A DNA stretch of 64,000 nt, taken from NCBI RefSeq assembly GCF_029227855.1, contig NZ_CP074356.1; one strand, given 5' to 3'. Numbering within the stretch: position 1 is the first letter of the stretch; each line of letters begins with the position of its first letter. A program made the position numbers. The stretch comes from Escherichia coli. GTDB taxonomy: Bacteria; Pseudomonadota; Gammaproteobacteria; Enterobacterales; Enterobacteriaceae. Positions 26,901-29,900 of the stretch are shown here, in pieces.

Positions 26901-29900
26901 CCGGACAAACGCTGGCTTTAAGCGCTATTCCCAGATTACTTTGGCTGGCGCACCATCGTTCTGATATCTACCGACAGGCGTCGACCATCACCATGATCAG
27001 CGACTGGCTGGCCTATATGCTCAGCGGCGAACTGGCGGTGGATCCCTCTAACGCTGGCACCACGGGACTTCTTGATCTAACCACCCGTGACTGGAAACCT
27101 GCATTGCTGGATATGGCCGGACTGCGGGCCGATATTCTTTCTCCTGTCAAAGAAACCGGCACATTGCTGGGCGTGGTAAGTTCACAAGCGGCGGAACTCT
27201 GCGGTCTGAAGGCGGGCACTCCGGTGGTCGTTGGAGGAGGCGACGTGCAACTTGGTTGCCTGGGGTTAGGCGTTGTGCGTCCGGCACAAACCGCTGTTCT
27301 TGGCGGCACATTCTGGCAGCAAGTTGTAAACTTAGCCGCGCCGGTGACAGACCCAGAAATGAACGTGCGCGTTAATCCTCATGTTATTCCTGGCATGGTA
27401 CAAGCTGAATCTATAAGCTTTTTTACCGGACTCACCATGCGCTGGTTCCGCGATGCTTTCTGTGCCGAAGAAAAACTGATTGCCGAACGTTTAGGCATCG
27501 ACACCTATACGCTGCTGGAAGAGATGGCAAGTCGGGTGCCGCCTGGGTCGTGGGGCGTAATGCCGATATTCTCCGACAGAATGCGCTTTAAAACCTGGTA
27601 TCACGCTGCGCCTTCCTTTATTAATTTGTCTATTGATCCGGATAAATGTAACAAAGCGACGTTGTTCCGTGCGCTGGAAGAAAATGCGGCGATTGTATCA
27701 GCGTGTAACTTGCAGCAAATCGCTGATTTCTCGAATATTCATCCTTCATCGTTAGTCTTTGCAGGCGGAGGTTCAAAAGGGAAATTATGGAGTCAAATTC
27801 TCGCTGATGTCTCGGGATTACCCGTCAATATTCCGGTGGTCAAAGAAGCCACCGCATTAGGATGTGCCATTGCAGCTGGCGTCGGTGCCGGAATTTTTTC
27901 ATCAATGGCAGAAACCGGAGAACGCCTGGTTCGCTGGGAACGGACGCACACACCAGACCCGGAAAAGCATGAACTTTATCAGGATTCACGCGATAAGTGG
28001 CAGGCAGTTTATCAGGATCAGCTGGGGCTGGTTGATCACGGGCTGACGACGTCGTTATGGAAAGCGCCTGGGTTATAGTTTCATTGACAGCCACATCATG
28101 ATGACCGTGGCTGTTAGTTTTTGAGTATTCTTATTTCCCTTCTTTTAGAGCTGGTTTGTTAAATGCCAGCTTGCAGATTCATCGTTCCATCGCCAGTAAT
28201 ATATTCAAGGGGAAATTGCTATTTTTCTTAAAATATTAAGCATAACCCTTATTTTATAGCGAATATTCCTAAAGGCATAAATGAATGAAAAAGAGTTTTA
28301 ATAGAGTTCTTTTTTAGCAATTAATGCTATTCTTTGTTAAATATGATGATGGTATTTTTCTTATTGAAAGAAACATTTTTCTTATTAAGCAACAATAACT
28401 CATGGTTCATTTTTAAATAAAATAAGAACTATGCAATTTTTAATCTATCGCTTCGAAAGTATTAGCAAATTAGCCAAATTGACACCTTCCCACCTCCAAC
28501 CAACACTCAATACAGACCTCTGACAACTTAATAAGTTTCATTTTTAACGTCTGATGACTCATCTCTTTCGTGGCTGTATTGTTTGTATATGGAGCGTTTA
28601 TATGAATAGAATCTATCGCGTGATATGGAATTGCACCCTACAGGCATTTCAGGTCTGCTCGGAATTAACTCGCAGGGTAGGTAAAACATCGACGGTTAAT
28701 TTGCGTAAATCCTCTGGACTGACAACGAAATTCAGTAGATTGACGCTGGGTGTTTTGCTGGCACTAAGCGGTTCAGCGTGTGGTGCGAGTCTGGAAGTTG
28801 ATAATGGTCAGATTACCAATATTAATACTGATATTGCTTACGATGCCTACCTGGTTGGGTGGTATGGCACTGGAGTGCTTAATATTTTGGCTGGCGGTAA
28901 TGCTTCCTTAACCACTATTACTACCAGCGTCATTGGCGCTAATGAGGACTCGGAGGGTACCGTTAATGTTTTGGGTGGCACCTGGCGATTGTATGATAGC
29001 GGAAATAATGCAAGGCCTTTAAATGTGGGTCAATCCGGTACGGGGACGCTGAATATTAAACAGAAGGGTCACGTTGACGGAGGATATTTAAGGATAGGTT
29101 CTTCGACAGGAGGCGTCGGGACGGTCAATGTTGAGGGAGAGGACTCGGTTCTGACGACCGAATTATTCGAAATAGGGAGTTACGGTACAGGCTCATTAAA
29201 TATTACGGATAAGGGTTACGTCACGAGTTCAATCGTCGCCATTGTAGGATATCAGGCGAACAGTAATGGTAAGGTTGTCGTTGAAAAGGGTGGCGAGTGG
29301 CTAATAAAAAATAATGATTCCTCAATTGAATTTCAAATTGGCAATCAAGGGACGGGGGAAGCGACTATTCGCGAGAGTGGGCTAATTACGGCTGAAAATA
29401 CGATTATCGGTGGCAATGCCATCGGTATCGGAACCCTGAATGTGCAGGATCAAGACTCTGTCATCACGGTACGCAGACTCTATAATGGATATTTTGGTAA
29501 TGGCACAGTCAATATTTCCAATAATGGACTGATTAATAATAAAGAATATTCATTGGTGGGCGTTCAGGACGGTTCCCACGGTATCGTCAACGTGACTGAT
29601 AAAGGGCATTGGAATTTCCTCGGAACGGGCGAAGCTTTCCGCTATATCTATAACGGTGATGCTGGCGACGGTGAACTTAATGTCTCGAGTGAAGGCAAAG
29701 TAGATTCGGGAATTATCACTGCGGGGATGAAAGAAACAGGCACAGGCAACATTACTGTTAAGGATAAGAACTCCGTTATCACTAATCTCGGAACTAATCT
29801 TGGTTATGACGGCCACGGCGAAATGAATATCAGTAATGAGGGGCTTGTTGTCAGCAACGGAGGAAGTTCACTCGGTTATGGAGAAACCGGCGTCGGGAAG

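What the first reader, a model, noticed from the sequence alone, without database searches (positions are those of the whole stretch)
28123..28601. Highly AT-rich 480-bp leader upstream of the autotransporter
The region between the lsrK terminator and the autotransporter start is strongly AT-rich with short direct repeats (e.g. ATTTTTCTTATT twice). This is the typical look of an H-NS-silenced, curved promoter region in front of a surface adhesin gene, so the gene may be cryptic under laboratory conditions.
Basis: inference. Interest (0 to 1): 0.3.

Follow-up and report, generated by a model that had tools for sequence, protein, structure and literature searches.

The report
H-NS-bound AT-rich region upstream of yneO

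Summary
The window is E. coli and is 100% identical to strain 746 here. Bases 28079-28601 are the spacer between lsrK and an intact 1806-aa AIDA-I-type autotransporter, the yneO/ydeK-ydeU pseudogene of K-12.

**Observation: confirmed.**
- GC is 0.305 (0.236 in the core), the lowest of any 479-bp stretch in the 64 kb.
- The 12-mer ATTTTTCTTATT does occur twice, but it is only marginally above chance and is exact only in this strain.

**Interpretation: largely supported by published data on the K-12 region, which is 92.5% identical.**
- It is one of 78 catalogued "promoter islands".
- H-NS binds it in three ChIP data sets and in genomic SELEX.
- σ70 and σS RNA polymerase bind it in vitro.

**Corrections.**
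- Nothing shows it is a transcribed leader. The best promoter candidates lie in the conserved last ~125 bp.
- Predicted curvature is no more than its composition gives.
- Silencing at this particular locus has not been measured.

- A strong marbox at 28313-28327 was shown to bind MarA in ETEC, both in vivo and in vitro.
- The gene is often broken independently (7 of 11 sampled strains).
- 54 genomes carry an IS5 inside the AT-rich core.

Already known; low interest.

The parts
26486..28078 (+). lsrK (autoinducer-2 kinase), the upstream gene
   Evidence: ORF; RefSeq annotation of the identical strain 746
28083..28122 (+). lsrK intrinsic terminator: hairpin 28083-28118 followed by a T-run
   Evidence: Fold -17.4 kcal/mol, z -3.8. 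No differences between this strain and K-12 across 28079-28122, with only minor variants in two of nine strains. The simple terminator scan found no terminator-like site here
28148..28172 (+). Second small hairpin (AGCTGG...CCAGCT); function unknown
   Evidence: Fold -11.3 kcal/mol, z -2.3. The stem is weaker here than in K-12
28172..28515 (.). AT-rich core, equivalent to the K-12 'promoter island' 1596197_345 ydeK/lsrK; inferred platform for H-NS binding and RNA polymerase trapping
   Evidence: Island coordinates from PMC3661553 Table 1, mapped through the MG1655 alignment with a U00096.2-to-.3 offset of about 1976 bp taken from memory (±2 bp). GC 0.22-0.26 in all 9 alleles. 25 promoter-like PWM sites on both strands against 9.6 expected. 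13 A/T tracts of at least 4 nt
28354..28386 (+).
   Evidence: Marginal against shuffles. Exact only in this strain
28311..28330 (-). Marbox (MarA/SoxS/Rob site): ATAGCATTAATTGCTAAAAA, 15-mer core at 28313-28327, centre 282 bp upstream of the ATG, pointing away from the autotransporter gene
   Evidence: The only match to AYNGCAYNNWNNRYYAAA in the 64 kb. The K-12 and ETEC version GCACTAATTGCTAAA is the MarA ChIP-seq and in-vitro site 'yneO +++' of PMC5684230 Table 1. It sits in the same spacer in K-12 and in H10407. The window's 15-mer is identical to the grxA/ybjC site, which also scores +++
28479..28507 (+). Best σ70-like promoter candidate: TTGACA (28479-28484), 17 nt, AACACT (28502-28507); predicted start near 28514, giving a leader of about 88 nt
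   Evidence: Highest PWM score in the spacer (10.6). The -35 hexamer is invariant in 9 strains. No experimental start-site data
28520..28548 (+). Hexamers proposed by Shimada 2014 for the yneO 'constitutive promoter': CTGACA, 17 nt, TTTAAT in K-12. Here the -10 reads TTTAAC, losing the final T, a change unique to this strain
   Evidence: PMC3946193 Table 2; alignments
28591..28604 (+). Shine-Dalgarno GGAG (28591-28594) and true start codon ATG (28602-28604)
   Evidence: Sequence; RefSeq start; Pfam ESPR match to residues 1-47. The in-frame ATG at 28554 is ACG in all 8 other strains
28602..34022 (+). Intact 1806-aa AIDA-I-type autotransporter (ECSE_1600 family; the yneO pseudogene in K-12)
   Evidence: Pfam ESPR, PATR, Pertactin, autochaperone AC_1 and Autotransporter beta-domain; annotation; 97.1% identical to K-12 yneO

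Best explanation
The 523-bp spacer is the upstream control region of a horizontally acquired autotransporter adhesin gene, not a transcribed leader. It has three parts.
1. The lsrK terminator (28083-28122).
2. A ~340-bp core of 22-26% GC (about 28172-28515) packed with weak promoter-like sites on both strands. In K-12 this core binds both RNA polymerase and H-NS. It is inferred to be coated by an H-NS filament that keeps polymerase unproductive, so the gene stays silent in ordinary culture.
3. A sequence-conserved proximal ~125 bp that carries the most likely core promoter(s), a short 5' UTR and the ribosome binding site.

A strong marbox sits inside the AT-rich core and binds MarA in ETEC. 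It may modulate or counteract the silencing under mar/sox/rob-inducing stress, but the direction of any effect is unknown.

Shown: the composition, the anatomy, H-NS, RNA polymerase and MarA binding in orthologous strains, and the intact gene.
Inferred: that this allele is bound in the same way, that binding silences the gene, and where transcription starts.
For: - Identity of the locus.
- Lowest GC in the 64 kb.
- The K-12 ortholog is listed as promoter island 1596197_345 with H-NS flag 'A' (all ChIP studies).
- Definition of the class and its transcriptional inactivity.
- σ70 holoenzyme SELEX site plus H-NS SELEX site in the yneO<lsrK spacer.
- σS holoenzyme SELEX peak in the same spacer.
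- My PWM scan finds 25 promoter-like sites against a mean of 9.6 per 479 bp (99.5th percentile).
- A/T tracts are at the 99th percentile and TpA steps are 1.7-fold enriched.
- All nine alleles keep core GC at 0.22-0.26 while the distal half differs 13% between this strain and K-12. The proximal 131 bp differs 3% and the flanking genes 2.4-2.9%. This fits a constraint on composition rather than on sequence.
- MarA ChIP-seq and gel-shift site.
- Precedent for H-NS repression of E. coli autotransporter genes.
- Independent inactivation of the gene in 7 of 11 sampled strains fits a gene that is rarely expressed or under weak selection.
Against: - No paper found reports yneO/ydeK/ydeU expression in an hns mutant.
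- No start-site data could be obtained.
- H-NS occupancy was measured in K-12, where the spacer is 7.5% different.
- The 10-bp high-affinity H-NS motif TCGATAAATT is not enriched: there is one 2-mismatch hit at 28442-28451.
- Predicted curvature does not exceed shuffles of the same composition.
- The strict consensus scan finds no canonical σ70 promoter.
- In this strain the -10 hexamer proposed by Shimada has lost its last T.
- The marbox is about 190-235 bp upstream of the best promoter candidates. That fits neither the class I nor the class II MarA activation geometry (geometry rules from memory).
Confidence: 0.75

Rival explanations
1. A MarA/SoxS/Rob-dependent promoter region. The gene is driven mainly by an activator bound at the marbox, for instance as a counter-silencer, and is switched on by salicylate, redox or bile-type stress rather than being simply cryptic.
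For: The ETEC ortholog has a strong MarA ChIP-seq peak and binds MarA at 0.3 µM in vitro. This strain keeps a full consensus marbox identical to the grxA/ybjC 15-mer. The marbox is retained in all nine alleles, with three variable positions. The marRAB locus lies 21 kb away in the same window.
Against: The paper reports no effect of MarA on yneO transcription. The site lies 282 bp from the ATG and about 190-235 bp from the best promoter candidates, in the backward orientation. No convincing -10 hexamer sits at class I or class II distances on either strand (inspection). This reading can coexist with H-NS silencing rather than replace it.
Confidence: 0.2
2. A genuine long structured 5' leader, such as a thermosensor, riboswitch or sRNA target, transcribed from a promoter just after the lsrK terminator.
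For: The whole 479 nt folds better than shuffles (z -2.68, 1 of 100). Several imperfect inverted repeats are present. A promoter-like site TTCATC-16-TATATT lies at 28178-28205.
Against: There is no Rfam match at E≤1 apart from noise. No covariation supports the consensus fold or the 20-nt quasi-palindrome. The proximal 112 nt is less structured than shuffles (z +1.9). The distal half is the least conserved part. As a class, promoter islands yield almost no long RNA in K-12.
Confidence: 0.04
3. Just an ordinary AT-rich intergenic spacer with a weak promoter, with no specific silencing, or a scar of the horizontal acquisition of the autotransporter gene.
For: Intergenic DNA in E. coli is generally AT-rich. 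The quoted repeat is strain-specific and near chance. Curvature equals the expectation from composition. The region is flagged as associated with a foreign gene (column C).
Against: It is the single most AT-rich stretch in 64 kb. H-NS and RNA polymerase binding have been measured on the K-12 ortholog. It is single-copy, with no similarity to phages, true plasmids or mobile elements.
Confidence: 0.08

Closest known systems
Promoter island ydeK(-)/lsrK(-), 1596197_345, of E. coli K-12 MG1655 (Shavkunov 2009; Panyukov & Ozoline 2013, PMC3661553)
   Same: It is the orthologous locus, with the same flanking genes, 92.5% identity, the same length and the same GC. It also shows a high density of promoter-like sites on both strands.
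   Different: It is a minority allele: only 15 of 4224 matching genomes are at least 99% identical, and most are 90-95%. The downstream gene is intact here but is a frameshifted pseudogene in K-12. PlatProm itself was not run, and H-NS occupancy has not been measured in this strain.
H-NS-repressed autotransporter and fimbrial adhesin genes of E. coli (upaC, ehaG/upaG, F9 and the cryptic chaperone-usher fimbriae of K-12), as summarised in PMC3966885
   Same: A surface adhesin gene, apparently horizontally acquired, preceded by an AT-rich H-NS-bound region and expected to be silent in laboratory culture.
   Different: For those genes, derepression in hns mutants and H-NS gel shifts were shown directly. 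For this gene only genome-wide binding data exist.
MarA/SoxS/Rob marbox targets (Sharma et al. 2017, PMC5684230)
   Same: Full match to the marbox consensus, and the orthologous site is one of 33 MarA ChIP-seq peaks in ETEC H10407.
   Different: It is unusually far from the start codon (282 bp) and lies inside an H-NS-bound tract. No regulatory outcome is known. This strain has GCAT in place of GCAC.
IS5 insertions that relieve H-NS silencing (bgl, flhDC; recalled from memory)
   Same: 54 E. coli genomes carry an IS5 at a TTAA inside this AT-rich core, upstream of an intact autotransporter gene.
   Different: No expression data exist. The 54 genomes may descend from a single event. The window itself carries no IS.

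Membership tests
Promoter island (Ozoline group definition) | At least 8 PlatProm-predicted start points per 100-bp window, sustained over at least 300 bp | not testable with these tools
   PlatProm is not available. The K-12 ortholog is on the published list (definition). As a proxy, my σ70 PWM gives 25 sites above the 99th percentile in 479 bp against a mean of 9.6, which is the 99.5th percentile.
Promoter island (Ozoline group definition) | Binds RNA polymerase but yields little full-length RNA | not testable with these tools
   σ70 and σS holoenzyme SELEX peaks fall in the K-12 spacer. Transcriptional inactivity is reported for the class, not for this island in particular.
H-NS-bound / xenogeneically silenced region | AT content well above the genome average over hundreds of bp | tested here: met
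   GC is 0.305 (core 0.236) against 0.468 for the window, the lowest in 64 kb. This is preserved in 9 alleles.
H-NS-bound / xenogeneically silenced region | H-NS occupancy in vivo or in vitro | not testable with these tools
   Published for K-12: three ChIP data sets, as compiled in PMC3661553 Table 1, and genomic SELEX. Not measured for this allele.
H-NS-bound / xenogeneically silenced region | High-affinity nucleation motif TCGATAAATT (Lang 2007; recalled from memory) | tested here: not met
   There is only one 2-mismatch hit in the spacer (28442-28451), with no enrichment. The motif is not obligatory for H-NS binding.
H-NS-bound / xenogeneically silenced region | Intrinsic curvature beyond what composition gives | tested here: not met
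   The wedge model (parameters from memory) puts the region at the 99.8th percentile of the window. However, 19% of dinucleotide shuffles are as curved.
H-NS-bound / xenogeneically silenced region | Derepression of the downstream gene in an hns mutant | not tested
   No paper found. This needs an experiment.
Marbox (MarA/SoxS/Rob site) | Match to AYnGCACnnWnnRYYAAAYn | tested here: met
   ATAGCATTAATTGCTAAAAA at 28311-28330 on the minus strand is the only match to the relaxed consensus in 64 kb. It deviates from the strict consensus at two positions: T for C in GCAC, and A for Y at position 19.
Marbox (MarA/SoxS/Rob site) | MarA binding demonstrated | not testable with these tools
   Shown for the ETEC ortholog by ChIP-seq and by gel shift at 0.3 µM. 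The window's 15-mer equals the grxA/ybjC site, which also binds.
Marbox (MarA/SoxS/Rob site) | Position and orientation compatible with class I or class II activation of a mapped promoter | tested here: inconclusive
   No mapped start site is available. No good -10 hexamer lies at the expected distances on either strand.
Structured RNA leader / known RNA family | Match to an Rfam model, or covariation-supported structure | tested here: not met
   There is no meaningful Rfam hit. The covariation term is only -0.94 and no better than shuffles.
AIDA-I-type (type Va) autotransporter (the downstream gene) | Extended signal peptide, repetitive passenger, autochaperone and C-terminal β-barrel | tested here: met
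   Pfam hits: ESPR 1-47, PATR, AC_1/Pertactin 1332-1452 and Autotransporter 1525-1784.

The most novel reading that the evidence does not exclude
In strains where the gene is intact, the marbox buried in the H-NS-bound core could let MarA (or SoxS/Rob) act as a counter-silencer. An otherwise cryptic AIDA-I-type adhesin would then join the mar/sox stress regulon, whose own operon lies 21 kb away, linking antibiotic or redox stress to surface adhesion. The IS5-bearing lineage would then be a constitutive bypass of the same silencing.
Probability: 0.15. Interest if true: 0.45.

Novelty: already known. Interest (0 to 1): 0.15.

Why it matters
This is a textbook-style case of xenogeneic silencing in front of an adhesin gene, and the K-12 version is already in published genome-wide catalogues. 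Its practical value is modest. It explains why this autotransporter would not be seen in standard culture. It also points to the conditions worth trying to study the intact protein: an hns mutant, MarA induction, or the IS5-bearing lineage. It does not open a new question.

Tried and rejected
- **Rfam:** a scan of 27500-29500 at E≤1 gave only two noise hits to eukaryotic families.
- **Consensus scans:** the promoter and terminator scans found nothing in this strain or in K-12. The criteria exclude the weak hexamers present and hairpins with a loop longer than 8 nt.
- **H-NS motif:** TCGATAAATT is not enriched.
- **Curvature:** it is not above composition-matched shuffles.
- **RNA structure:** covariation tests of the RNAalifold consensus and of the 20-nt quasi-palindrome around the marbox showed no support.
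- **Small ORFs:** those of 20-53 aa in the spacer show nothing notable, and the 28554 ATG is strain-specific.
- **Other species:** two exact-pattern scans of one-genome-per-species contigs gave 0 hits. No cross-species footprinting was possible, and this E. coli sequence seems absent from the species representatives.
- **Phages and plasmids:** there is no phage match, and the only 'plasmid' hits are mislabelled 4.8-4.9 Mb chromosomes.
- **Literature on expression:** searches for yneO/ydeK/ydeU with hns or H-NS found no locus-specific expression data. UpaI gave nothing.
- **Other papers checked:**
  - The CLASH and blue-light papers mention the gene only in passing.
  - The eLife 2024 and Frontiers 2020 promoter-island papers do not mention this island.
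  - The Sharma supplement has no yneO detail.
  - The PMC id I recalled for a K-12 dRNA-seq start-site paper is not held.

Full report
**What the locus is.** The spacer 28079-28602 is 100% identical to E. coli strain 746. It is found, mostly at 90-95% identity, in 4224 of 5426 complete E. coli genomes, once per genome. The annotation of strain 746 gives the gene order lsrACDBF (minus strand), lsrR, lsrK (26486-28078), an 'ECSE_1600 family autotransporter' (28602-34022), then hipBA. In K-12 MG1655 the same position holds the pseudogene yneO (b4696, formerly ydeK/ydeU). Here the gene is intact. It encodes 1806 aa with an ESPR signal peptide, passenger repeat, autochaperone/pertactin domain and autotransporter β-domain.

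**Checking the observation.**
- The boundaries are correct. lsrK stops at 28078, and a hairpin at 28083-28118 (-17.4 kcal/mol, z -3.8) is followed by a T-run.
- The true start codon is ATG 28602 (MNRIYRVIWN), with GGAG at 28591-28594. The in-frame ATG at 28554 listed is ACG in all eight other strains.
- GC is 0.305 for 28123-28601 and 0.236 for 28200-28470, against 0.468 for the window. Only 0.07% of 479-bp windows are as low, and the global minimum sits at 28112-28590.
- ATTTTTCTTATT occurs at 28354 and 28375. A 12-nt exact repeat appears in 5% of dinucleotide shuffles (2% within 50 nt), although repeated 9-mers are enriched (13 against 2.1).
- In eight other alleles the two copies differ at 1-3 positions. 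The repeat is therefore a feature of low-complexity AT-rich DNA in this strain, not a conserved element.

**What is published about the orthologous K-12 spacer.**
- Panyukov & Ozoline 2013 (PMC3661553) list '1596197_345 ydeK(-)/lsrK(-)' among the 78 'promoter islands' of MG1655. These are stretches of at least 300 bp with at least 8 predicted start points per 100 bp.
- They flag it 'A', meaning H-NS-bound in all the ChIP data sets compared (Grainger; Oshima; Kahramanoglou), and associate it with a predicted foreign gene.
- As a class, these islands bind RNA polymerase but give almost no full-length RNA, only 9-14-nt products.
- Shimada 2014 (PMC3946193) found a σ70 holoenzyme genomic-SELEX site in the yneO<lsrK spacer (best-guess hexamers CTGACA-17-TTTAAT). 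They marked the spacer as containing an H-NS SELEX site.
- Shimada 2017 found a σS holoenzyme peak there as well.
- Mapping through the MG1655 alignment, the island corresponds to about 28172-28515 of the window (the offset between genome versions is from memory).

Sharma et al. 2017 (PMC5684230) list GCACTAATTGCTAAA at 'ETEC1580 / yneO' among 33 MarA ChIP-seq peaks in ETEC H10407, with gel-shift binding at 0.3 µM.
- In H10407 the peak (1717096) and the motif centre (1717112) lie in the lsrK-autotransporter spacer, 283 bp from the start codon.
- The identical 15-mer sits at the aligned position in K-12.
- In the window it reads GCATTAATTGCTAAA (28313-28327, minus strand). This is the only match to the relaxed marbox consensus in the 64 kb. 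It is identical to the grxA/ybjC site, which also binds MarA at 0.3 µM.
- The site points away from the autotransporter gene and lies about 190-235 bp upstream of the best promoter candidates. I could not assign it to a class I or class II arrangement, and its effect is unknown.
- The mar operon's own marbox is at 7171-7185 of the same window.

**My own tests of the 'H-NS-silenced curved promoter' reading.**
- A σ70 PWM (hexamer frequencies from memory) finds 25 sites above the window's 99th percentile in the region, on both strands, against a mean of 9.6 per 479 bp (99.5th percentile). This agrees with the island label.
- The best site is TTGACA (28479-28484), 17 nt, AACACT (28502-28507), which would give a leader of about 88 nt.
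- The Shimada -10 hexamer is TTTAAC here, having lost its last T, a change unique to this strain.
- A/T tracts of at least 4 nt (13 of them) are at the 99th percentile, and TpA steps are 1.7-fold enriched.
- Curvature from a wedge model (parameters from memory) is at the 99.8th percentile of the window, with peaks near 28305 and 28474. However, 19% of dinucleotide shuffles of the region are as curved, so curvature follows from composition rather than from special phasing.
- The 10-bp H-NS nucleation motif is not enriched.

**Population pattern.**
- Against K-12 the spacer is 92.5% identical, while lsrK, lsrR and the autotransporter gene are 97.1-97.6% identical.
- Divergence is 0% in the terminator, 13% across 28123-28330, 6% across 28331-28470 and 3% in the last 131 bp. 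Core GC nevertheless stays at 0.22-0.26 in all nine alleles.
- This fits a distal platform constrained in composition and a proximal promoter, UTR and RBS constrained in sequence.

| Gene state | Strains sampled (11 in total) |
|---|---|
| Intact | 746, N-01, HR5-1, JXZ9A32M |
| Independently broken (frameshift, IS1 or IS3) | K-12 (seen in MG1655 and XL1-Blue), ST2747, E2863, 00_3305, DJH_137urine, strain 122, H10407 |

- JXZ9A32M and 53 other genomes carry an IS5 at a TTAA equivalent to window 28228-28231, inside the AT-rich core.

**Alternatives examined.**
- *Long structured leader:* there is no Rfam hit. The whole region folds somewhat better than shuffles (z -2.68), but covariation gives no support. 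The proximal 112 nt is less structured than shuffles.
- *Mobile-element remnant:* the region is single-copy and has no phage or true plasmid homologs.
- *Other species:* the sequence was not found by exact pattern in one-genome-per-species contigs.
- *Small ORFs:* nothing notable.

**Conclusion.** H-NS repression of other E. coli autotransporter genes is also an established precedent.

Three points remain inferred: that this allele is bound in the same way, that binding silences this gene (no hns-mutant data were found), and where transcription starts. 'Leader' should read 'upstream control region', and the quoted repeat and the curvature claim carry no independent weight. The region is already catalogued in K-12, so novelty is nil and interest is low. 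The one open thread is what the MarA site does inside an H-NS-bound tract.

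Noticed in passing
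window 28228-28231 (TTAA); L011 4651-6379: Strain JXZ9A32M has an IS5 inserted at this TTAA inside the AT-rich core, upstream of an intact autotransporter gene. The same junction is present in 54 complete genomes, possibly one lineage. The geometry resembles IS5 insertions that relieve H-NS silencing at bgl and flhDC (from memory).
   Followed up: partly
window 28602-34022 and orthologs in L002, L003, L005, L007-L010, L012: The autotransporter gene is inactivated by different lesions (frameshifts, IS1, IS3) in 7 of 11 sampled strains. In some of these strains lsrK, lsrA, lsrB or lsrC are broken as well.
   Followed up: partly
window 7171-7185: An exact copy of the marRAB promoter marbox (CCACGTTTTGCTAAA) shows that the mar locus lies in the same window, about 21 kb from the MarA site upstream of the autotransporter.
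   Followed up: no
window 28548 and 28554: Two SNPs are unique to this strain among nine compared. TTTAAT becomes TTTAAC in the -10 hexamer proposed for K-12. ACG becomes ATG, creating an in-frame upstream start codon that extends the ORF by 16 codons.
   Followed up: partly
window 28275-28294 / 28308-28327: A 20-nt imperfect inverted repeat (75% complementary) has the marbox as its right arm. It is about 79% paired in all alleles but has no covariation support.
   Followed up: yes
window 28123-28330 versus 28471-28601: The distal half of the spacer differs 13% from K-12, about five times the flanking genes, while GC stays constant. Alleles L004-L006 look like mosaics of the two main types.
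   Followed up: partly
window 47199-47677, 57644-58122, 46174-46652, 43216-43694, 10063-10541: These are other stretches with GC of 0.31-0.34. They may be further H-NS-type AT-rich spacers, since K-12 lists promoter islands at ydeO/safA and gadB/pqqL in this neighbourhood.
   Followed up: no
window 28148-28172: A second hairpin (AGCTGG...CCAGCT) lies downstream of the lsrK terminator, with no T-run on either strand. Its stem is stronger in K-12 (9 bp) than here.
   Followed up: partly
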